From IMG/VR virus record IMGVR_UViG_3300037851_000044, positions 1-39,362 of that record: 39,362 nucleotides of DNA; one strand, given 5' to 3'. The first letter of the stretch is position 1. Every line of letters starts with the position of its first letter. The notes under the pieces are model-generated. The model had not been told where the DNA came from. It searched no databases and worked only from the letters and a program-made list of their open reading frames with translations. This document shows, one piece after another, positions 1 to 39,362 of the stretch. Position numbers and translations under genes: made by a program. This stretch comes from a virus (lineage: Duplodnaviria > Caudoviricetes).

Positions 1-103
1 GGCCGTGTCCAGTCGATCCGTCGGCGTGTCATCCGCCGCCATTTCAGGCGACACGGGTGACGATAGCTTCAGTAGCGCGTGCTTAAGATTGAGGGTTCTA
101 ACG
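1..103 (+). repeat. Terminal overlap, identical to 39160-39262 (circular assembly)
   Basis: Direct match ggccgtgtcc...ggttctaacg at both ends, offset 39159. Confidence 0.95.
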
Positions 104-182
104 TGGAGTTCAGCGGCGTGCCCGCTGTCTGTTCGAGTAACCACCCTGCTGGCGGCACGTCCGCTGGAACGCAGGGTTAGGC
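96..182 (-). repeat. attC site 1 (87 bp)
   Basis: Minus strand: GCCTAAC-CCTGC-GTTCCAGC-GGACGTGCC...GGCACGCC-GCTGAAC-TCCAC-GTTAGAA; R''/L''/L'/R' boxes with extra C and A in the left arm. Confidence 0.92.
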
Positions 183-203
183 GTTTTCGCATAAGGAGGC
201 AGT

Positions 204-407
204 ATGTCTGCAAGATGGTACGTGGTTCGCGTTGACGAAGAAAAGCTTCAGATCTTTAAGGCGGCAAAGAAGCCAGTGTTCGAGCCGGTTCGCGGAAACT
301 GGCCACGGGAGTGCAACGTCAACGGGGATGACGGAGAAGACGCGGTTTACGCGGGTGGCTTTTTGACTGGCACGATGCGGCTAAACGTCGGATTTGAAGA
401 CGCCTAA
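204..407 (+). CDS. Cassette 1 hypothetical protein (67 aa)
   Basis: AAGGAGG RBS upstream; TAA stop lies inside the next site (GCCTAAC). Confidence 0.75.
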   Translation: MSARWYVVRVDEEKLQIFKAAKKPVFEPVRGNWPRECNVNGDDGEDAVYAGGFLTGTMRLNVGFEDA

Positions 408-420
408 CGTAGAGTTGGGG
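402..420 (-). repeat. Collapsed att site (two R-like boxes with a 5-bp spacer)
   Basis: GCCTAAC-GTAGA-GTTGGGG; each side complements the far end of the adjoining cassette. Confidence 0.65.
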
Positions 421-427
421 GTGCGGA

Positions 428-703
428 ATGAAGGTGGCGAACAAAGGGACGGGGAATAGGTATGCCCGCGATCTTGGCGGGAACCACATAGAAGCCATCC
501 GTTCCACAGCGACAAGCAACGGGGTTTTCATCGCATTCGGAAAAAGATTCTGCGAGACATGTCAGACGCTGAAACCGAAAGACTCAACGCCAGCAAAAAA
601 GGGGTGGAAGTGCAAGGACTGCAAAACTAAGACCCACAACGCAAAAGTTGAGGCCGACGGCGCGGGCATTATCGCGACGGTCGCGCCTCGAACGACGGGT
701 TAG
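428..703 (+). CDS. Cassette 2 zinc-ribbon-like protein, reads through attC2
   Basis: CETC...CKDC motif pair; stop TAG falls in the GTTAG box of attC2. Confidence 0.65.
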   Translation: MKVANKGTGNRYARDLGGNHIEAIRSTATSNGVFIAFGKRFCETCQTLKPKDSTPAKKGWKCKDCKTKTHNAKVEADGAGIIATVAPRTTG

Positions 704-705
704 CC
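634..705 (-). repeat. attC site 2 (72 bp)
   Basis: Minus strand: GGCTAAC-CCGTC-GTTCGAGG...CCTCAAC-TTTTGC-GTTGTGG. Confidence 0.9.
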
Positions 706-749
706 CTCAACGGAAACCTACTACAACTGACTCTCAAAGGAGCATAACG

Positions 750-1097
750 ATGGAACAACAGCACACCCTGATGAAGTTCGACCCGGCTACAGGGGAGCCG
801 AAGCCCTACCCGAGCCACGCCGGCCAGTGGCGCGTTTGGCACGGGAAGATGACGGCGTGGCTTTTCAACCCGTGGACTGGAACACGCCGCGATGCTGGCG
901 ATGTTGGAAGCGACACGTTTGGACAGTTGATCCTTCCGCCCGGGGAGCCGCTGTATGCAGCCACGGAGAAAGCAGCGCCACTGCAAGAGGTTGAGGCTCG
1001 CTACAAGGACTTGCTGCAACGGCTTGGCGTGCATGGACACGAAGGCGCGGTGGCTGAGATTTCCAAGCTGCGCGAGGTTAGAGGTCTTGATGGCTAA
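750..1097 (+). CDS. Cassette 3 phage-type hypothetical protein (115 aa)
   Basis: AAGGAG RBS at 737-742, ATG at 750; Trp-rich YPSHAGQWR...WLFNPWTG segment; TAA inside GGCTAAC. Confidence 0.8.
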   Translation: MEQQHTLMKFDPATGEPKPYPSHAGQWRVWHGKMTAWLFNPWTGTRRDAGDVGSDTFGQLILPPGEPLYAATEKAAPLQEVEARYKDLLQRLGVHGHEGAVAEISKLREVRGLDG

Positions 1098-1150
1098 CGC
1101 TCCGCATGAGCGCGCGAGCGAAGCGAGTCCGCTCGATGCGGTTGTTCGGC
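1092..1150 (-). repeat. attC site 3 (59 bp)
   Basis: Minus strand: GCCGAAC-AACCG-CATCGAGC...GCTCATG-CGGAGC-GTTAGCC. Confidence 0.9.
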
Positions 1151-1169
1151 GTCACTGTTTGGAGGATTG

Positions 1170-1637
1170 ATGAGCATACCGTATGAAACCGCCACAAGTG
1201 GCGATAAGGCGCTGCTGGAATTGCAGCGCACCCTGGCGAAGTTCGGTTGCCAAAGTTTCGGCACAATGACGGACGCCGAGAAAGGCGAAACCATCGTGCA
1301 GTTTCGGTGGCGCAATCGGGACGTGTCGCTGCGAGCCTCTTGGAAGGGCTACGCGGCGGCGTGGCTGAAAGACCACCCTTACAGCCACAGGATGCGCTGC
1401 AATCGAGCGCAGCACGACCAAGCCGCGCTGAAACAAGCGCAGACCAGCGTGTGCAGCGTTCTTCGGGATTGGGTAAAGGGCCAGGTGACTGCCGTTGAGT
1501 GTGGAATCATGAGTTTCGAGGCGGCATTTATGCCGCACATGCTGCTCTCGACGGGCGAGCGCGTGATTGACCGGATACATGCGCAGGGGATGCTGCCCGC
1601 GCCAGACGCCGGTAATGTTGTGGAGATGCGGAAGTGA
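1170..1637 (+). CDS. Cassette 4 phage-type hypothetical protein (155 aa)
   Basis: GGAGG RBS at 1161-1165; fills the interval between attC3 and attC4. Confidence 0.85.
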   Translation: MSIPYETATSGDKALLELQRTLAKFGCQSFGTMTDAEKGETIVQFRWRNRDVSLRASWKGYAAAWLKDHPYSHRMRCNRAQHDQAALKQAQTSVCSVLRDWVKGQVTAVECGIMSFEAAFMPHMLLSTGERVIDRIHAQGMLPAPDAGNVVEMRK

Positions 1638-1638
1638 C

Positions 1639-1707
1639 GCCGAACGCAGAGGTAAGCGGGACGGCGAAGCGCAGCTTCGACGGCTCCGCTTGACCGACTG
1701 GTTATGC
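1639..1707 (-). repeat. attC site 4 (69 bp)
   Basis: Minus strand: GCATAAC-CAGTC-GGTCAAGC-GGAGCCG...CCGCTTACC-TCTGC-GTTCGGC. Confidence 0.92.
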
Positions 1708-1724
1708 CTCGCGACGCGACCACG

Positions 1725-2183
1725 ATGAAACTGCGGATCGTACCCACGGACCTGAAAACGGCGAACGAGTTTGTGCGCCGGCTGCACCGGCACAGCCGCC
1801 CGGTGGTTGGGCACCGCTTCGCGGTCGGCGTGGCTGACGAGGCCGGCACGCTGCGCGGGGTTGCGATTGTGGGCAGGCCGGTAGCGCCGCGCCTGGACAA
1901 CGGTTTCGCGGCCGAGATTACCCGGCTGTGCACGGACGGCACGCGGAACGCCTGCTCGATGTTGTACGGAGCGGCGCGGCGGGCAGCGCGTGCGATGGGC
2001 ATGGCGCCGATTTACACCTACACCCTGCCGGACGAAGGCGGGGCCAGCTTGCGGGCCGCTGGATTCCGACTCGACAAAGAGGACGCGGGCGGTAGCGCCG
2101 CGATGTGGCACAACCGGCCCGGCAGGACCGCGCAGCCCGTTGGCGACGATCTCGTCGGCGGAAAGTGGCGGTGGGTTGGGTGA
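1725..2183 (+). CDS. Cassette 5 XF1762-family protein (possible Mom-like GNAT DNA-modifying enzyme); alternative start at 1704
   Basis: ANEFV..LHRH, GVAIVGRPVA, EITRLCTDGTRNACSMLYGAA, TYTL..EGGASLRAAG motifs. Confidence 0.75.
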   Translation: MKLRIVPTDLKTANEFVRRLHRHSRPVVGHRFAVGVADEAGTLRGVAIVGRPVAPRLDNGFAAEITRLCTDGTRNACSMLYGAARRAARAMGMAPIYTYTLPDEGGASLRAAGFRLDKEDAGGSAAMWHNRPGRTAQPVGDDLVGGKWRWVG

Positions 2184-2184
2184 G

Positions 2185-2260
2185 GCATAACGCACAAATA
2201 AGGGGCGGCTGACGGCGGCTTTATCGCCGGCAGGCGTCCCTCTTGATTGACGGGTTATGC
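2185..2260 (-). repeat. attC site 5 (76 bp)
   Basis: Minus strand: GCATAAC-CCGTC-AATCAAGA-GGGACGCC...GCCCCTTATT-TGTGC-GTTATGC. Confidence 0.9.
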
Positions 2261-2302
2261 CGCGCTACCCACAAAGCGCGGCACACGACAAAGGAATAGA
2301 AC

Positions 2303-2542
2303 ATGAGCAAAGGCAACCTGCAACAAGTGATGGTGCGGATTAAGGGTTCTGATGTCAGCAGCCCGATTGCTGTTTTTCGCTGCGACCAGCCGGAAATGCT
2401 GGATGCCGTTTTCGCGGCAACCGTGAAGACGCAGCAGATGATTGAGCTACGGCACCCGGACTTGATCGGAGTCTACGACGGCACCATGAATCTGGATCAG
2501 GTGTTGCAGGAGTTGGCCGGCCATGTGCGCTATGCGGCATAA
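2303..2542 (+). CDS. Cassette 6 hypothetical protein (79 aa)
   Basis: AAGGA RBS; TAA inside GCATAAC of the terminal site. Confidence 0.8.
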   Translation: MSKGNLQQVMVRIKGSDVSSPIAVFRCDQPEMLDAVFAATVKTQQMIELRHPDLIGVYDGTMNLDQVLQELAGHVRYAA

Positions 2543-2580
2543 CGTGATTTATCTCGGTGATCTGCCGGATAACATAGCTC
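2537..2580 (-). other. Candidate attI-like primary recombination site
   Basis: Minus strand TGTTATCCGGCAGATCACCGAGATAAATCACGTTATGC: GTTRRRY-type core at the head of the array with no paired R'' box. Confidence 0.55.
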
Positions 2581-2636
2581 GACCTGACGTAAACGATGCC
2601 ACGCAAAACAAATGAGCCGCTTCAATAATTTCCTGT

Positions 2637-2801
2637 TTGACCGCATGGACGCTCCGGTACTGGATCAACGGCTGGCTGAAGGAAGGAAAGCGCGGGAAGT
2701 TCCTGTCGCTGTCGTTCAAGCCGAAGACGGCAAAGGCTCCCGACGTGATGCCGAAGGTCAATGCTGGCGTGGCTGATATGGACTCGGATGTTCCTTTTTG
2801 A
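2637..2801 (+). pseudogene. 3' fragment of a small phage ssDNA-binding protein (DUF736-like)
   Basis: Translates YWINGWLKEGKRGKFLSLSFKPK...DMDSDVPF*, with an SSB-type acidic PF tail; in-frame TGA at 2613-2615 and no ATG upstream of the conserved block. Confidence 0.65.
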
Positions 2802-2803
2802 CC

Positions 2804-2902
2804 ATGACCACTAACACCGATGAATTGCGGGCCGAAGTCAAGCGGCTTAAGACAGGAGGTTGTGCGCGCGATCAAAGGCTGACGCAGAGAAGCGATGACT
2901 AA
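2804..2902 (+). CDS. Short ORF or gene fragment (32 aa)
   Basis: MTTNTDELRAEVKRLKTGGCARDQRLTQRSDD; packed tightly between neighbours. Confidence 0.4.
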   Translation: MTTNTDELRAEVKRLKTGGCARDQRLTQRSDD

Positions 2903-3677
2903 CTTGGAAAAAGTGATTGCTCTGCTCGATGGGTTGATCGAGTCTGATCTAGACAGAGCGGAACGATTTATTGAGTCTCGTCTTACTCGCATTGACCTAC
3001 TAAAGCGGCAAGCCGCCCGAGCAGCGCCAGCGCAGCGCAATCTAACCGTGCCGGAAGAAAAGGCGATTGACGCCGCGTTGTTCTCCGGATCAAAGCTGGT
3101 AGGAGTCGAGTTTAGGGACGGCGCAATTAGAGCAGCGCCAGCGCAGCCAGTCACGCACACGGTTGCTACCGCGCCGAAGCGAATCTATCTAAACGTCTTT
3201 GAGCACCTCGAGGACGATCTTGGATTCCCCGACGACCATGAGGGCATTACATGGTGCGAGGACAAGATAGGTGACAACGACATCCCGTACGTCCGCGCCG
3301 ACTTAGCAGGGGCAGCGCCAGCGCAGGCAGAGCTGCCAACTGCACTATCGCAGTTCAACAAGTTTTGGAGCGACGAAGATGACGGCAGCGATCCGGTCGA
3401 ACGCCTGCGTGCATTCTGTTCGTTCGCCATGAAAGGGCAGGACTGGCTGGACGTTGAACCGTTCTTCGATGCGCTGACTGCTGCGCGCGACCTGACCGCA
3501 TGGCGAGCCGAGGCGATGAGGCTTGGAAGGATAGAGCACTACTACTGCGAGGACTCATGGTACTCATGCCCCCAAGCGGAGGGCGGTTGCTCCGATGAAG
3601 CATGGGGGACGGAATGTACCTGTGGAGCGGACTCGCACAACGCCGCCCTCGCCGCGCATTTGGAGAAGTTGAAATGA
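2895..3677 (+). CDS. Modular phage early protein with AAPAQ linkers (260 aa)
   Basis: Three in-frame GCAGCGCCAGCGCAG repeats; Cys/His-rich C-terminus; ATGA coupling to the next gene. Confidence 0.75.
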   Translation: MTNLEKVIALLDGLIESDLDRAERFIESRLTRIDLLKRQAARAAPAQRNLTVPEEKAIDAALFSGSKLVGVEFRDGAIRAAPAQPVTHTVATAPKRIYLNVFEHLEDDLGFPDDHEGITWCEDKIGDNDIPYVRADLAGAAPAQAELPTALSQFNKFWSDEDDGSDPVERLRAFCSFAMKGQDWLDVEPFFDALTAARDLTAWRAEAMRLGRIEHYYCEDSWYSCPQAEGGCSDEAWGTECTCGADSHNAALAAHLEKLK

Positions 3678-21056: not shown

Positions 21057-22610
21057 TTACCTCCGGATTACGCGCAGCCCGCGATCGTCATCGGACGCGG
21101 GTTCGTCGGGTTCGTCATCGGGTTTGGGCGCAACGTCGGTCGGCGGTTGAACCGGTTCGACGGTTGTATCCAGATTGATCCCGGCATCTTCGAACATTTC
21201 CAGTTCGACGGCCCGAATCCTGGCGATTTCTTCGACGTCGCGACCGTCGCTGTATTGCGAAACGACGTCCGTAATGGTCGTGAACCCGCAGCGGACCGCT
21301 TCTTTGTATGCGGCAACTTCTTTGCCAGGATCAACGAATCCCCATCCGCGCAACAGCCATTTGACCGCTTCGTACCTGACCGGATCGGCGGCGTATGCGC
21401 CGATCGGAATCGCCGGGATTGCTCGAGCCATCACCGCAAGCTGCAACCATTCGCGGTGAAATTCGGCGCGGAACGAACGGACCCACCATTGCTGCAAGAT
21501 CCGCCACAGATCGCGATCGTCCAGCAACGCCAGGCGCGACGACGAATAGTTCGACTGCGAATAGTCGCGCGAAAGGGATTCGTACGACACGCCGCAGCCC
21601 GCGGCCATTTCGCGCAACATATAGCGCAGGAACGCTTCGACCGCAGAATTCGGGCGGTTCGGCGCGACGAAATTCATTTTTTCGCCATACGCCAGCCGTT
21701 CGACGATGCCGGGTTCCATCGGGATCGTCGACTGTCCGTTCGCGGCGACGTCGCCGGTTCCAGCTTCGTCCCCAGGTTCGTCGGTTTCGACGAAACCCAT
21801 GTAACACGCGGCGGCGCGGGCGGCGGTGATTTCAGCTTCGGAATATCCGTCGATATCGTTCAGCTTCCGCAGGACAGCGTGCATCCACGGAACACAGCGC
21901 GTTTGCGGCCAGCGGTCGCGAAGTCCGATATGGATTATGTCCGATGCCGGGACGCGGATAACTTCGTCAACGGCCAGCGCAGACCAGCGGGTATCCCCCG
22001 GATGATGCTTGCGGATGTAATAGGCGACCGGGCGCCCGAACCCGTCGACTTCGATTCCCTGCCTGACCTGGCCTACCGCGCCCGGCCACGGTTGCGCCAT
22101 GTTTTCGGCGATGCGTTCCGCTTCGATGATTTCAAGCGCCATCGGCACGGACGAACGCCCAAGCGTCAACGGATGTTTGCGGATGAACACTTCGCCCGCT
22201 TCGAATACCTGTTCCAGGCAAAGCCGTTCCATATCCTCGAAAGCCAGAACGCCGCCGGTATGGCATGACTTCGCTTCGGACCACTGGCGCCAGGCCGATT
22301 CAATTCCGTTATTGACGGCGGTCGCCAGTTCGTCGCGCGTCGTCATTACTTGCGCCTGAATCCCGACGCCCGACCCGAGTACGTTATTAACGACGATCGC
22401 CCGCGCCCGCTTCGCGTAGGAATTGTCGCGGATCAGTTGCCGCGACCGGTTGCGAAGTGACGTCAGCGACGAACTTAGTTCGCCGTCTGCGCTTGTCGTG
22501 CCGGACCCGAAACCAAATGTCAGGCGCGACTGCGCGGCGCCGTTGTAAAGGCGGATCGACTTCGGCGCGATCAGTCGCGCGATGCGCTGGCGAAGTTTTC
22601 TAAGATCCAT
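21057..22610 (-). CDS. Portal protein, lambda family
   Basis: LRNRSRQL.RDN, QTR.VPW, GVSYE.LSRDYSQSNYSSSR, W.FVDP.KE motifs. Confidence 0.92.
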   Translation of the reverse strand: MDLRKLRQRIARLIAPKSIRLYNGAAQSRLTFGFGSGTTSADGELSSSLTSLRNRSRQLIRDNSYAKRARAIVVNNVLGSGVGIQAQVMTTRDELATAVNNGIESAWRQWSEAKSCHTGGVLAFEDMERLCLEQVFEAGEVFIRKHPLTLGRSSVPMALEIIEAERIAENMAQPWPGAVGQVRQGIEVDGFGRPVAYYIRKHHPGDTRWSALAVDEVIRVPASDIIHIGLRDRWPQTRCVPWMHAVLRKLNDIDGYSEAEITAARAAACYMGFVETDEPGDEAGTGDVAANGQSTIPMEPGIVERLAYGEKMNFVAPNRPNSAVEAFLRYMLREMAAGCGVSYESLSRDYSQSNYSSSRLALLDDRDLWRILQQWWVRSFRAEFHREWLQLAVMARAIPAIPIGAYAADPVRYEAVKWLLRGWGFVDPGKEVAAYKEAVRCGFTTITDVVSQYSDGRDVEEIARIRAVELEMFEDAGINLDTTVEPVQPPTDVAPKPDDEPDEPASDDDRGLRVIRR

Positions 22611-31802: not shown

Positions 31803-32369
31803 CTATAGGGTAGCCCTATCGATTGCCTGCTGATCCAATCGACGGAAGCTATTAGCTTCGAACCGCACCAGTGCCCGCCCATCCTTGAGGATGCGGACAT
31901 GATCGCCGAAGAATTCGTCGACTGCCATTCGGCATCCTGGCAACGGATCGTAGTCATCGAACAGGATTGCGCCGCCCGGAATCATCCTGGGCGCGAACGT
32001 GCGGCAGATTTCGAACGTCGTTTCGTATTGATCGGCATCGGCATGGACGAACGCGACCGGACCTGTTTCGATGAACGAATCCGGGAAGATACCGGGAACG
32101 ATGACCGCATCCGGGCAGAGCGACCTGACCAGTTCGACCGATGTATCGGCGAAGTCCCCGACGCGATGAACGTCGAATTTGCCTGATACTGGCATCCCGC
32201 TGAACGTATCGAACAGGTAAAGCTTTCTGCCCTGCGCTCGAGCCACGTCCAGCAAGTGAACCGCGGTCCCGCCCTGATACACGCCGACTTCGACCATAGC
32301 GCCGCCAGCGGGACACGACGCGGCGATTGCGACCATAGTCGCCGTCATCGGTTCGTTTACGATCCGCAT
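31803..32369 (-). CDS. TylF/MycF-family O-methyltransferase
   Basis: VEVGVYQGG, LFDTFSGMP, G.F.DS, FVHADADQYE, GG.ILFDDY, AVDEFF. Confidence 0.85.
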   Translation of the reverse strand: MRIVNEPMTATMVAIAASCPAGGAMVEVGVYQGGTAVHLLDVARAQGRKLYLFDTFSGMPVSGKFDVHRVGDFADTSVELVRSLCPDAVIVPGIFPDSFIETGPVAFVHADADQYETTFEICRTFAPRMIPGGAILFDDYDPLPGCRMAVDEFFGDHVRILKDGRALVRFEANSFRRLDQQAIDRATL

Positions 32370-35524: not shown

Positions 35525-36043
35525 TCATGTTCGCAATGCCCGCCGCACCTTGTCGCGGCTGATGTTCAGTTCCGCCTGGATTTCGTCAAAGGACTTTCCC
35601 TCCGCCCGCAGCCGCTTCACGGGCCCCGCAAGATGCGCGACAGATTCCTTCCTGAATGTCGGACGCAAGGGCCCGCGCCCTGGAAACGTATGCCCCGCCA
35701 AAAGCGCCCGGACATACCTCCTGCTGATGACAAGCTCCGCCGCAATCTCGCGCTGCGTCCAGCCCGATTCGGCAAACTCAATGGCCCTGCGCCTGAGTTT
35801 GTCCACTTCCGATTCATTGCGCCGCCCGCCATCCTCGAGTTGCGCGCCATTGCCGAGAAGATTCTCGCGCCAGTAAAAGGCCGATCTTGGCTCCATCAAG
35901 CCACCCTCCGCAGCCTGACCGACTTCAATAGTTCGCGTACCCGTTCCTTTTCTTCCTCTGTCGGCGGCCCCTTCGCTTCCTTGGCAGCTTCGATCTCCTG
36001 CCGCTTCTGCATATTGGCGATCGAGGATGTCATCAGGGTTCAT
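35525..36043 (-). CDS. Tandem HTH DNA-binding protein (alternative start 35896)
   Basis: GWTQREIAAELVISRRYV and GKSFDEIQAELNISRDKVRR. Confidence 0.7.
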   Translation of the reverse strand: MNPDDILDRQYAEAAGDRSCQGSEGAADRGRKGTGTRTIEVGQAAEGGLMEPRSAFYWRENLLGNGAQLEDGGRRNESEVDKLRRRAIEFAESGWTQREIAAELVISRRYVRALLAGHTFPGRGPLRPTFRKESVAHLAGPVKRLRAEGKSFDEIQAELNISRDKVRRALRT

Positions 36044-36921
36044 GCGGATTCCTCACCGAACAAATCAGACTGAACAGCGGCGGCCCTTATATTGAGAACC
36101 GCTTGATCATAGTAGCTCGATTTAAGCTCTATCCCTATAAACCTACGTCCCATCTCAACTGCAACATGGCCTTCACTTGCGATCCCGGCAAAGGGAGATA
36201 ACACGGTGTCATTTGGATTTGTCCACAGATCAATTCCGCGACGGATAACCTCCAACTGCAATGGGCAGATGTGCCGCTCATCATCATCCTCGCGCGCGCT
36301 ACGAAATTGCAACGTGTCGCCTGGATCAATGTCTGTCCAGATCGGAGAAGCTATCTTCTGCCACTTGCTTACCGGATACTCTTCTCCGTGTAACACGCGA
36401 TCCACAATCTCACCAGGCGCGCGCATCGTGACAAGGTAGTCAGGAATACCTTGTCTGCTCATCGTTGCATTTCCTCGAACGGTTTTGTGCAACAGACCTA
36501 GTGCCTTAGTGCGCTGCATTGCCATTACCGGGTCTTTCCAGATACATACTTCGCTGGCATAGATAAACCCGCGCTTCTGAAACGCGCGGATCAGATCGCC
36601 GCGGAAGTCACTCAGCCCGACATAGCCGTCACGCTCTTTGCTGGTTGGCAGCAACATGCAATGAAACGAGACGTTATGTCCCGGCTTCATCACGCGCAAG
36701 AGTTGCGCTACCAAGAAATCGAAGTGCTCGAAAAATTCCGCATGGTCACGGCAATTGCCCATGTCTCTTGGGCTATTGCTGTAGGTATACAAGCTGGCGA
36801 ACGGTGGAGAAAAAATCGAATAATCAATACTTCTCTCCGGCAATCCCTCCATCACCTCTACGCAATCTCCGTGATACATCGCCCACCTATCCGTCACCTC
36901 CTGTCGAATACAATTCATCAT
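36040..36921 (-). CDS. DNA methyltransferase, N4/N6 family, beta class
   Basis: SIFSPPF motif IV precedes VLSPFAGI.SEG motif I; H.CPLQ; GIELK. Confidence 0.9.
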   Translation of the reverse strand: MMNCIRQEVTDRWAMYHGDCVEVMEGLPERSIDYSIFSPPFASLYTYSNSPRDMGNCRDHAEFFEHFDFLVAQLLRVMKPGHNVSFHCMLLPTSKERDGYVGLSDFRGDLIRAFQKRGFIYASEVCIWKDPVMAMQRTKALGLLHKTVRGNATMSRQGIPDYLVTMRAPGEIVDRVLHGEEYPVSKWQKIASPIWTDIDPGDTLQFRSAREDDDERHICPLQLEVIRRGIDLWTNPNDTVLSPFAGIASEGHVAVEMGRRFIGIELKSSYYDQAVLNIRAAAVQSDLFGEESA

Positions 36922-38297
36922 TCCCCCTTCAGCCATGCTGGATGTTGTACTTCGTCGCTAGCGTGATACGGATTCACGGATCGTTCCAATCCAAAAACCT
37001 CAGATCTCACGGCATCCGCCGTCTCGGCAGAAAGAGCATCTGCCATTAGCCGTGAGTCGCGCTCCTTTCTGCGTAGATTGGCCACAACAGATCCCTCCAA
37101 TTCGGAAGCGAAAATATGGACCTTCACTTCTCGCGGTTGCCCGAAACGCCAGCACCTGCGTACTGCCTGATAGTAACTTTCAAATGAGTCAGTGACTCCG
37201 ACAAATGCCATATGTGCGCAGTGCTGCCAATTCAATCCGAATCCAGCAATGCTTGGCTTTGTCACTAGCACCCTGATCTTTCCTGCAGCAAAATCAAGAA
37301 GCGCGCGTTCCTTGTATTCCGCATCATGGGAGCCTCGTATCTCCACAGAGTCAGGGATAGCCTCAATCAACGCGTCGCTTTCAGCATTTAGGTCGCACCA
37401 GACAATCCACGGTTCTGGCGTCTCGTTGACTATTGAAGCGCATTCTTCTACTCGACCTTCTAGAGACGCCTTGCGCGCCAGCCTACGCTCCGAGAGAGTC
37501 TGCGCCTCGAGCGCAAACAACATTCCTTCGCTGCTTTGATGGGTCTTGATGGTATGTTCGATTACGCTGAGAGGCGGGATGTCATAGAGTGAATCGTCAT
37601 ATCCAAGGTCAGAAGGCCGTCGAACCAAGGCCCCCCACGATGACACCCACCGCCAGAATTGATGCCTGGCGTGCCGCTTGATGCGCCATACATTAGTTTC
37701 CCCGCCGTCGTGCATGAAAAACTCTGCCAGCATTTCGGATCTAGTACAAACTCCAAGGAATTCCGCGTGCGTCCCTAGTTCTGTCCAGTCGTTCGGCGCC
37801 GGCGTGGCGGTAGCACATAACTTGAACTGAACATCCCGGAACCGTGCCGTCAAATCTGCGAATGTCTTTGCGTCGTGGTGCTTAATGATGCTTGACTCAT
37901 CGAGCACAACAGCTCCAAATTCAGAGGTGTTGAACTTGTGAATTCGCTCGTAGTTCGTGATGTTGATTCCTGGGCATATTTCCAATGACGATCTAGCATG
38001 TGTAACTTCAATGCCAATGGCTTTGCCCTCGTTCGTCGTTTGTTCTGCTACTGCTAGGGGCGCGAGAATCAGAACCGATTTACCGGTAGATTTGTATACC
38101 GCATTGGCCCACGTCAACTGCATTCTCGTCTTGCCCAATCCGGTATCGGCGAAGATAGCGCAACGCCCGCGCCTCAGTGCCCATATAACCAGAGCCTCCT
38201 GATGGGGAAACATTCCGGCATGAACATGGGACGTATTGGTCAATCCCGTTGGCGGTATCAGACTTAACTTGCGATCAATGAGATCCGCATAGCTCAT
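36918..38297 (-). CDS. SF2 (SNF2/DEAD-like) helicase
   Basis: ADTGLGKT, LDESS, TATPAPN, GFGLNWQ, QAVRRCWRFGQ. Confidence 0.9.
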   Translation of the reverse strand: MSYADLIDRKLSLIPPTGLTNTSHVHAGMFPHQEALVIWALRRGRCAIFADTGLGKTRMQLTWANAVYKSTGKSVLILAPLAVAEQTTNEGKAIGIEVTHARSSLEICPGINITNYERIHKFNTSEFGAVVLDESSIIKHHDAKTFADLTARFRDVQFKLCATATPAPNDWTELGTHAEFLGVCTRSEMLAEFFMHDGGETNVWRIKRHARHQFWRWVSSWGALVRRPSDLGYDDSLYDIPPLSVIEHTIKTHQSSEGMLFALEAQTLSERRLARKASLEGRVEECASIVNETPEPWIVWCDLNAESDALIEAIPDSVEIRGSHDAEYKERALLDFAAGKIRVLVTKPSIAGFGLNWQHCAHMAFVGVTDSFESYYQAVRRCWRFGQPREVKVHIFASELEGSVVANLRRKERDSRLMADALSAETADAVRSEVFGLERSVNPYHASDEVQHPAWLKGE

Positions 38298-38844: not shown

Positions 38845-38920
38845 ATTATGCCATAGTTTAACGGGATAAAAACCCGTTACGGATCAACGCCGTACAAAGT
38901 CCCGTTTTTTGTGATATAGT
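38845..38920. promoter_or_regulatory. Divergent promoter region with central inverted repeat
   Basis: Extended -10 candidates TGGCATAAT (- strand, 38853-38845) and TGATATAGT (+ strand, 38912-38920); TAACGGG-N7-CCCGTTA at 38859-38879. Confidence 0.5.
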
Positions 38921-39035
38921 GCAATTGTTTCGGGACGGTCCGGAATTCGATGAACGATTACCTAGCCCGGCATGGACAGTGGCGCCAAACGGCGCCCAGC
39001 GGGTGGTATGCAAACCGGAAGCAAGGGAAAACGAA

Positions 39036-39245
39036 ATGACGCGAAACCTTGCAGTGATGCTGTTCGCCGCCGCCCTGGCGGCGTGCGGTGGCGGAATCGA
39101 CGACGAACAGTTCATCGGCCCGCCGTACGTCGAGGATACCGCGCCGGTCGCAGCGCCGAGGCCGTGTCCAGTCGATCCGTCGGCGTGTCATCCGCCGCCA
39201 TTTCAGGCGACACGGGTGACGATAGCTTCAGTAGCGCGTGCTTAA
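39036..39245 (+). CDS. Small lipoprotein (69 aa)
   Basis: Signal peptide with LAAC lipobox; Pro-rich mature part. Confidence 0.7.
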   Translation: MTRNLAVMLFAAALAACGGGIDDEQFIGPPYVEDTAPVAAPRPCPVDPSACHPPPFQATRVTIASVARA

Positions 39246-39254
39246 GATTGAGGG

Positions 39255-39326
39255 TTCTAACGCAAAAGTTGAGGCCGACGGCGCGGGCATTATCGCGACG
39301 GTCGCGCCTCGAACGACGGGTTAGCC
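39255..39326 (-). repeat. Hybrid attC (R' flank of site 1 joined to the body of site 2)
   Basis: 39160-39262 equals 1-103 and 39259-39362 equals 638-741; only AACG is shared at the junction. Confidence 0.9.
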
Positions 39327-39362
39327 CTCAACGGAAACCTACTACAACTGACTCTCAAAGGA

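What the first reader, a model, noticed from the sequence alone, without database searches (positions are those of the whole stretch)
102..2542. Every cassette gene is inverted relative to its attC, and the cassette ends pair with each other
Seen: the box after each hairpin complements the sequence at the 3' end of the following gene. Pairs are 176-188/396-408 (12 of 13), 414-422/632-640 (8 of 9), 699-710/1087-1098 (11 of 12), 1144-1156/1633-1645 (13 of 13), 1701-1710/2182-2191 (10 of 10) and 2254-2263/2534-2543 (10 of 10). This defines units 102-407, 408-639, 640-1097, 1098-1644, 1645-2190 and 2191-2542, each able to re-form a well-paired R box when circular. Known: typical cassettes have the gene co-oriented with attC and the stop in or near R''. 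Here 6 of 6 genes are antisense, with stops in or beside the complement of R'. Inference: this is a distinct cassette class that would be silent from a normal Pc but expressed from the phage early promoter at the far end of the array.
Basis: partly seen in the sequence, partly recalled or inferred. Interest (0 to 1): 0.85.

Follow-up and report, generated by a model that had tools for sequence, protein, structure and literature searches.

The report
Backwards integron cassettes caught excising
A freshwater bacteriophage keeps six small genes in an integron-type cassette array that reads backwards compared with bacterial integrons, and its assembly holds a second version lacking the first two genes, cut at the integron cutting motif, which likely means a borrowed integrase is reshuffling the phage's own genes.

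Summary
The six complementary pairs are real, but they fit either orientation. Other evidence settles it as inverted. Five full attC hairpins carry the extrahelical G on the gene-coding strand. The contig's circular end holds a second array form in which the left flank joins site 3 inside the AAC box, skipping units 102-639 (joint also in run X1). Between phage loci at least 99% alike, shared blocks end at the AAC box 18 times, at the GTT box never, and inside a hairpin twice. Corrections: 'site 2' is a collapsed attC without a hairpin, which explains why units 1 and 2 leave together; gene 2 stops in the next site. The right end (2541-2573) resembles attI. This phage has no integrase, but related phages do: 70 of 86 units inverted, 8 canonical. 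Bacterial arrays are mostly canonical (53 canonical, 17 inverted, 33 unclear). Expression and ongoing activity are untested. I found no paper on the layout, but this scan has noted it in at least 40 other genomes. The two coexisting forms are what this window adds.

The parts
39036..39245 (+). 69-aa ORF just upstream of the array on the circular map; not a cassette (no matching GTT box before it); lipoprotein-like by eye
   Evidence: no PHROG hit
1..101 (+). Left flank of the array, repeated at 39160-39262; ends in TTCTAA, the R' complement of the last attC on the top (minus) strand
100..178 (-). attC site 1; bottom strand is plus; predicted cut AA|C at 101/102; unpaired G at 167
204..407 (+). 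Gene 1, 67 aa, unknown function; RBS; stop TAA inside the AAC box
   Evidence: (one relative, 90%)
406..422 (-). Collapsed attC ('site 2'): AAC, 5 nt, GTTGGGG; both flanks of a full hairpin that precedes a gene-2 relative in L347:2409-2489
   Evidence: spanned in run X2
428..703 (+). Gene 2, 91 aa, CxxC..CxxC zinc-ribbon-like; reads through site 3
638..701 (-). attC site 3; unpaired G at 690; partner of the observed junction (639/640)
750..1097 (+). Gene 3, 115 aa, unknown function; relatives in other phage arrays
1096..1146 (-). attC site 4; unpaired G at 1135
1170..1637 (+). Gene 4, 155 aa, PHROG 17260; ordinary phage gene without adjacent hairpins in 21 of 21 viral relatives examined
1643..1703 (-). 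attC site 5; unpaired G at 1692
1725..2183 (+). Gene 5, 152 aa, XF1762 family / Mom-like DNA modification protein
2189..2256 (-). attC site 6; unpaired G at 2245
2303..2542 (+). Gene 6, 79 aa, unknown function; 19 relatives
2541..2573 (-). Likely attI: R box, L-like box and a repeat box ending 30 nt from the cut; no intI follows it here
39160..39362 (+). Second array form at the contig end: copy of 1-103 joined within AACG to a copy of 642-741, skipping units 102-639

Best explanation
This phage carries an integron cassette array (five intact attC hairpins, one collapsed one and a likely attI) whose six genes lie on the attC bottom strand, and its assembly holds a second form lacking units 1-2 joined at the bottom-strand AAC box, which an integron integrase borrowed from the host or another phage likely made. 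SHOWN: site anatomy and strand; genes on that strand; two array forms; junction within AACG; each hairpin moves with the gene that follows it on the plus strand; no tyrosine recombinase in this genome. INFERRED: the plus strand folds and is cut AA|C by IntI as in bacterial attC; attC1 x attC3 excision removes units 1-2 together because site 2 cannot fold; new cassettes enter at the attI-like right end; the array descends from a phage integron that lost intI; a rightward early transcript starting near 38.9 kb reads the genes, so the newest cassette is the last read, the reverse of a bacterial integron. Inversion is likely selected because it puts cargo, and in relatives intI itself, in the phage's early operon; it would also put the bottom strand on the lagging-strand template of a co-directional fork, which favours folding.
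For: Unpaired G in L'' on the plus strand in 5 of 5 full sites, the feature that marks the recombined bottom strand, with the cut between C and A of the R' box (PMC2727003). The detector places the tested bottom strand of TJE1_attC2 correctly. Re-formed circles fold more stably on the plus strand in 5 of 5. Contig end: 103 nt identical to 1-103, then 100 nt identical to 642-741, 4 shared bases; the same joint in a contig of run X1, depth 8 against 16 upstream. Other studies: an X3 contig matches 1096-1645 with other sequence on both sides, an X4 contig 2188-2544 with another left neighbour. Ends of shared blocks between phage or metagenome loci, AAC/GTT/inside: 18/0/2 at 99%, 22/2/3 at 97%. 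L347 shows the full hairpin that site 2 lost. L032 has the same array, then an attI-like end, then a TIGR02249 integrase. In 67 of 71 viral IntI loci examined, 70 of 86 units inverted, 8 canonical, 8 unclear.
Against: X1 may be the source sample, its joint contig has only 25 nt on the short side, and no X1 contig over 104-637 was listed. Two forms could be two strains from an old event. No integrase in this genome, and the host is unknown. The attI call is moderate: rank 2 of 1178 AAC positions but score 11 against a leave-one-out median near 28; rank 2 over 8 nt but 17 over 12 nt with bacterial ends. At 93% identity 13 of 49 block ends fall at the GTT box, and among 70-90% homologues the upstream hairpin was no more alike than the downstream one. 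No promoter passed the scan; no RNA strand data. A cruder longest-ORF method gave only 18 inverted, 6 canonical, 30 unclear of 54 viral units.
Confidence: 0.8

Rival explanations
1. The array is inverted and was built by an integrase, but is now a static relic; the two forms are two related phage strains in one sample.
For: No integrase in the genome; only contigs, no raw reads or circles; one site has decayed and the attI-like end scores below most known ends.
Against: Both flanks of the junction are 100% identical between forms; five sites are intact; X1 contig ends fall at the AAC boxes of site 1, site 6 and the right end, hinting at more forms; 152 of 401 genomes of the likely host order carry an IntI relative.
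Confidence: 0.25
2. The loss of units 1-2 came from integrase-independent slippage or from the phage's YqaJ/RecT pair acting on short homology at the hairpin base.
For: The phage encodes YqaJ and RecT-like proteins; slippage at attC hairpins is described (PMC8876359; PMC5371416) and probably made site 2.
Against: Only 4 bases are shared at the junction and they hold the IntI cut motif; 18 of 20 block ends at 99% identity fall at that box.
Confidence: 0.08
3. The orientation is canonical: each gene belongs with the hairpin that follows it, and crossover is at the plus-strand G|TT.
For: The end-pairing and the stops in TAAC look exactly like canonical cassettes; 2 block ends at 97% and 13 at 93% fall at the GTT box.
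Against: Unpaired G on the wrong arm for that reading in 5 of 5 sites; the observed junction keeps site 3's body with the downstream gene; X3 and X4 contigs start at the AAC box; intI and attI lie at the right end in relatives.
Confidence: 0.02
4. The contig-end junction is an assembly artefact.
For: It lies at a contig end; CheckV calls the record linear and 64% complete.
Against: A second assembler gives a 55-nt contig across the same joint at about half the upstream depth; a 4-base overlap cannot join a word graph; the joint falls at the predicted cut.
Confidence: 0.04
5. The hairpins are RNA control elements of the early transcript (terminators, antiterminator sites) rather than DNA recombination sites.
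For: They fold best on the coding strand and sit between co-oriented genes.
Against: No Rfam match to E=1; none called as a terminator; the same architecture lines bacterial integrons next to intI; DNA junctions map to one box.
Confidence: 0.03

Closest known systems
CALINs in phage genomes (Qi et al. 2023, PMC9892861)
   Same: Cluster of attC sites between small genes in a phage without intI; phage attC sites of TJE1 and PH101 recombine with attI1, bottom strand above top strand.
   Different: The paper describes TJE1 as a typical array, and I found its two detected sites canonical to the annotated genes. Here every gene is on the bottom strand, an attI-like end is kept, and two array forms coexist. 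The text I read does not describe inverted cassettes.
Bacterial integron cassette arrays (IntI, attI, attC; Bouvier et al. 2009, PMC2727003; Nivina et al. 2016, PMC5027507)
   Same: R'', L'', L', R' boxes, unpaired G in L'', pairing beyond 7 nt, cut at AA|C, stop codons placed at the box: within -9 to +8 nt in 27 of 48 inverted phage units and 26 of 53 canonical bacterial units.
   Different: Strand choice normally puts the gene under Pc; here it puts the gene against Pc. Cargo is phage-type. In relatives intI is co-oriented with the cargo genes.
Fused cassettes with a truncated attC (blaOXA-10/aadA1 and others; PMC8876359, section 2.4.4)
   Same: Partial loss of one attC leaves two genes moving as one unit, as for units 1-2.
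   Different: Occurs in an inverted phage array, and the unit's loss is seen.
Inverted-integrase integrons (as described in PMC13323075, methods)
   Same: intI reads in the same direction as the cassette genes.
   Different: There intI is flipped relative to attC. Here intI and attC keep the regular divergent layout (137 of 141 sites upstream of intI) and the genes are flipped.

Membership tests
attC site | AAC and GTT boxes at the ends, L'/L'' inverted repeats, 5-nt R''-L'' spacer | tested here: met
   5 of 6 positions; not met at 406-422
attC site | Unpaired G in L'' that marks the bottom strand | tested here: met
   G at 167, 690, 1135, 1692, 2245 on the plus strand
attC site | Second unpaired base (T) 6-8 nt from the G | tested here: inconclusive
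   A T lies 6-7 nt before the G in 4 of 5 sites; predicted folds do not always leave it unpaired
attC site | [quoted passage not shown] | tested here: met
   Junction resolved to the 4 shared bases AACG; 18 of 20 block ends at 99% identity
attC site | Recombined by IntI as a folded single strand | not testable with these tools
   Needs a conjugation assay
Canonical gene cassette | Gene on the top strand, upstream of its attC | tested here: not met
   6 of 6 genes score on the bottom strand and have relatives
Canonical gene cassette | Unit found with other neighbours | tested here: met
   Unit 4 in X3, unit 6 in X4; unit 5 relatives aligning from 1643 to 2193-2206 in 5 loci
Complete integron | intI next to the array | tested here: not met
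   No PF00589 match at E<=1; no tblastn hit below E 0.55 with the L032 IntI
Complete integron | attI at the proximal end | tested here: inconclusive
   Right position and spacing; rank 2 of 1178 with a modest score
Complete integron | Pc promoter reading into the array | tested here: inconclusive
   No consensus promoter on either strand in 1-3000; the scan is weak
CALIN | Two or more attC sites without a nearby integrase | tested here: met
   IntegronFinder itself was not available

The most novel reading that the evidence does not exclude
Phages run their own branch of the integron system: a phage clade of IntI, phage-type attI sites and cassettes built backwards from ordinary phage genes, so that the early operon reads cargo and integrase together. 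Integrase-less members such as this one still reshuffle in the wild with a borrowed enzyme, and this population is caught doing so. The backwards cassettes also flow into host chromosomal integrons. Cassettes are therefore being made from phage genes with the same precise stop placement on either strand, which makes phages a place to watch cassette genesis.
Probability: 0.4. Interest if true: 0.88.

Novelty: new variant of a known kind. Interest (0 to 1): 0.68.

Why it matters
Integron strand choice is understood as the device that guarantees a captured gene is read from Pc (PMC5027507, abstract). A class in which the same sites carry genes the other way round, almost without exception in phages, shows the machinery re-used under another promoter logic. 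While bacterial integrons stock anti-phage genes (listings), phages may stock accessory genes such as a Mom-like DNA modifier in the same format. How cassettes are first made is an open question (my knowledge); gene 4 is a plain phage gene in 21 relatives and a cassette here, which gives before-and-after pairs. This window adds natural junction evidence for which strand recombines.

Tried and rejected
End-pairing as proof of orientation: rejected, it is symmetric. Hairpin similarity among 70-90% homologous cargo: no signal (21 pairs, 9 of them duplicates of one array; background 0.49 +/- 0.12); against the window's gene 5, upstream beat downstream in 9 of 11 loci with both hairpins, often narrowly. 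Longest-ORF strand calls were swamped by shadow frames and replaced by a composition plus RBS score trained on 13 window genes, which may miscall AT-rich bacterial cargo (six low-scoring 'inverted' calls in L112). Left-flank pattern in metagenomes: 0. Right-end patterns in loci and viral contigs: 0. Site 5 against plasmids: 4 short chance hits. YqaJ relatives in viral contigs: none, so no close phage backbone was found. Rfam: none. PDB for gene 5: none. Promoter scans: none. MW202573 and KX853513 gave no array with my detector, so they say nothing on orientation. The hit at 22389-22480 is at chance level. Runs with small word shares (X5-X24) are not used for habitat; X7 laid nothing. The careful IntI tree did not finish; only the quick tree is cited. 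No covariance model was built; sites rest on a rule-based detector.
Full report
Setting. The window is the whole record G000, 39,362 bases, a tailed phage: terminase, tail, endolysin, helicase, methylase, YqaJ and RecT-like genes. Its best-holding run is a freshwater metagenome that may be the source. The array lies at 100-2573 in a run of plus-strand genes that begins at 39036 on the circular map and continues to about 5700.

Observation. The six pairs are as stated. Five full hairpins exist, at 100-178, 638-701, 1096-1146, 1643-1703 and 2189-2256. A rule-based detector gives 0-2 strict hits in each of five shuffled windows and 82 hits in 61 fetched loci against 4 in their shuffles. The position 406-422 has no hairpin. 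Gene 2 runs through site 3 and stops at 703; one of its three relatives also reads on into hairpin-like sequence. The pairing alone cannot give orientation: a cassette cut at the left box or at the right box of each hairpin re-forms the same pair.

Which strand is the bottom strand. Bouvier et al. state that L'' holds a G without partner, that IntI binds the bottom strand and cuts between C and A of its R' box (PMC2727003; passages and part 1 of 2 of the Introduction). In all five sites that G is on the plus strand, in the right arm, so plus is the bottom strand and AAC at the left is R'. The detector finds the experimentally tested bottom strand of TJE1_attC2 on the strand given by Qi et al.. 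Predicted circles fold more stably on plus in 5 of 5 (for example -32.2 against -22.8 kcal/mol for unit 6). All six genes score on plus, have relatives, and four have a clear RBS. The genes are therefore inverted.

Natural junctions. The contig end repeats 1-103 exactly and then continues with 642-741, sharing only AACG: a second form without units 102-639, in which site 3's body stays with the gene after it. A canonical crossover would have kept site 1's body instead. Logan contigs of run X1 show the same joint, 99 to 638, at depth 8 against 16 for the upstream contig. Caveats: X1 may be the source; the joint contig has 25 nt on its short side; no X1 contig over 104-637 was listed. The long form is backed by another study: X2 contigs match 122-272 and 356-506 without differences. 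Runs of two more studies hold single units with other neighbours: X3 matches 1096-1645 (1 difference) and X4 2188-2544 (6 differences). Across all viral and metagenome loci with sites, ends of shared blocks fall at AAC/GTT/inside as 18/0/2 at 99% identity, 22/2/3 at 97%, 25/4/3 at 95% and 30/13/6 at 93% (distinct site and side); bacterial pairs gave 12 of 12 at AAC. The GTT ends at lower identity, and the failed hairpin-similarity test, show that hairpins are also swapped or diverge over longer times.

Site 2. A gene-2 relative in L347 is preceded by a full hairpin whose outer parts match what is left at 406-427. Site 2 is thus an internal deletion, as in fused cassettes (PMC8876359, section 2.4.4). 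This predicts that units 1 and 2 can only leave together, which is the form seen.

Right end and integrase. G000 has no tyrosine recombinase. L032, fetched through gene 5, has ten inverted sites, then a non-hairpin end, then an integron integrase (TIGR02249, 479 bits, cut-off 265). With it, 71 viral loci were fetched; in the 67 examined (four partial matches left out) 137 of 141 sites upstream of intI have the regular orientation to it, and 70 of 86 distinct units in 30 loci are inverted, 8 canonical (6 in L240), 8 unclear. Their ends before intI share a pattern with a repeat box 31-32 nt from the cut. The window's 2541-2573 has such a box at 30 nt and ranks 2 of 1178 AAC positions, with a score (11) below most training ends; against ten bacterial ends it ranks 2 over 8 nt and 17 over 12 nt. 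I call it a likely attI of a different subtype. A quick tree of 57 integrases puts 41 viral ones in a branch (SH-aLRT 99) without any of 8 bacterial ones; the viral set was chosen by likeness to L032 and the careful search did not finish. In 401 genomes of the order of a Sulfuritalea genome, 152 have a relative; the best (68%, G216) has a phage-type end and inverted cassettes and lies beside a second recombinase at the edge of housekeeping genes, as a prophage would. A 92% relative of gene 5 sits in an inverted unit in G479 of that family. A betaproteobacterial host is therefore likely, not shown.

Phage against bacteria. Among loci fetched through the window's genes, 48 of 54 units in 17 loci (4 from the window) are inverted, none canonical, 6 unclear; among bacterial loci fetched by an attC pattern, 53 of 103 units in 34 loci are canonical, 17 inverted, 33 unclear (Fisher p 6e-19, but units are not independent and the phage set is selected). 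Four of the 17 come from L130, which looks like a prophage by eye. A cruder method gave 18/6/30 and 11/58/34 (inverted/canonical/unclear). In 29 bacterial intI loci, 10 calls were canonical, 6 inverted, 3 unclear. Three are first cassettes of ordinary-looking integrons; two of these lie among housekeeping genes, and two of the three proteins match PHROG families, one also a metagenome locus fetched through gene 5, at 73%. So the layout is strongly phage-biased but not phage-only.

Mechanism. Shown: anatomy, strand, two forms, junction box, no own integrase. Inferred: cutting by IntI supplied in trans; entry of new cassettes at the right end; loss of intI from an ancestral phage integron; transcription from the divergent gap at 38847-39035, where no promoter passed the scan. 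Bottom strands on the lagging-strand template fold and excise more often (PMC5371416, abstract and passages); if the fork runs with the early genes, inversion gives both expression and high turnover. The fork direction is my inference.

Literature. Qi et al. 2023 (PMC9892861; parts 1-4 of 7, which cover the main text, and part 1 of 2 of the supplement; figures and the Dryad annotation file not seen, and these may show orientation) report phage CALINs and working phage attC sites; TJE1 is canonical. Also seen: PMC4792948, PMC11551772, PMC13323075, 10.1101/2025.06.18.660453, 10.1101/2022.09.11.507474 and 10.64898/2026.03.17.712381 (passages only; bioRxiv supplements closed), PMC5027507 (abstract). 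Ten searches found no paper on systematically inverted phage cassettes; the library lacks most subscription journals. Single cassettes against Pc are known (symE in Xanthomonas). This scan has at least 40 earlier notes on the same layout in other genomes; two look-ups for an observed excision junction returned none.

Verdict. A real inverted integron array, a new variant of a known kind, already familiar within this scan. The added value is the natural crossover evidence, the collapsed site that predicts it, and the links to phage integrases and chromosomal integrons. Interest 0.68.

Noticed in passing
window 2163-2569 and 74-103 (run X1 contigs): Contig ends fall 30 nt from the AAC boxes of site 6 and of the right end, and a 31-nt contig (depth 10) precedes the joint contig (depth 8). 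With 31-letter words this hints at further array forms; no joints were listed.
   Followed up: partly
window 2533-2573: Contigs of X1 and X2 carry this element with 4 differences in another context, so the attI-like end is shared with another replicon.
   Followed up: partly
L362:901-1400 (G062), L367:1127-1440 (G034), L376:368-700 (G258): Bacterial integrons whose attI-proximal cassette is inverted; two of three cargo proteins match PHROG families.
   Followed up: partly
L203, L204, L205; L206, L207; L236, L237: Viral contigs with identical or near-identical integrases but different cassettes next to attI.
   Followed up: partly
L384:830-6219 (G216): Inverted array, phage-type IntI and a second tyrosine recombinase at the edge of housekeeping genes: a likely integrated prophage; one cassette encodes a Dam-family methylase.
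   Followed up: partly
L240: A viral record with a fully canonical array (6 of 6 units) and an integrase that groups with bacterial ones: likely a captured host integron.
   Followed up: no
L033, L035, L039, L045, L046, L048: Long hairpins that hold an RBS and ATG in their loop, so that genes start inside the site; 9 of 48 inverted units start inside a hairpin. None of the window's genes does so except by a possible upstream ATG at 1704.
   Followed up: no
window 2637-2801: 54-aa ORF with weak matches to phage single-strand binding proteins, where intI sits in relatives; may be a remnant.
   Followed up: no
window 38847-39035: Gap between divergent genes with a TGTGATATAGT element resembling an extended -10; it did not pass the promoter scan.
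   Followed up: partly
window 3019-3036, 3130-3147, 3310-3327: Three 18-nt copies encoding an AAPAQ linker inside the 260-aa ORF.
   Followed up: no
window 31803-32369 and 36040-36936: A TylF-like methyltransferase and an N6/N4 DNA methylase outside the array.
   Followed up: no
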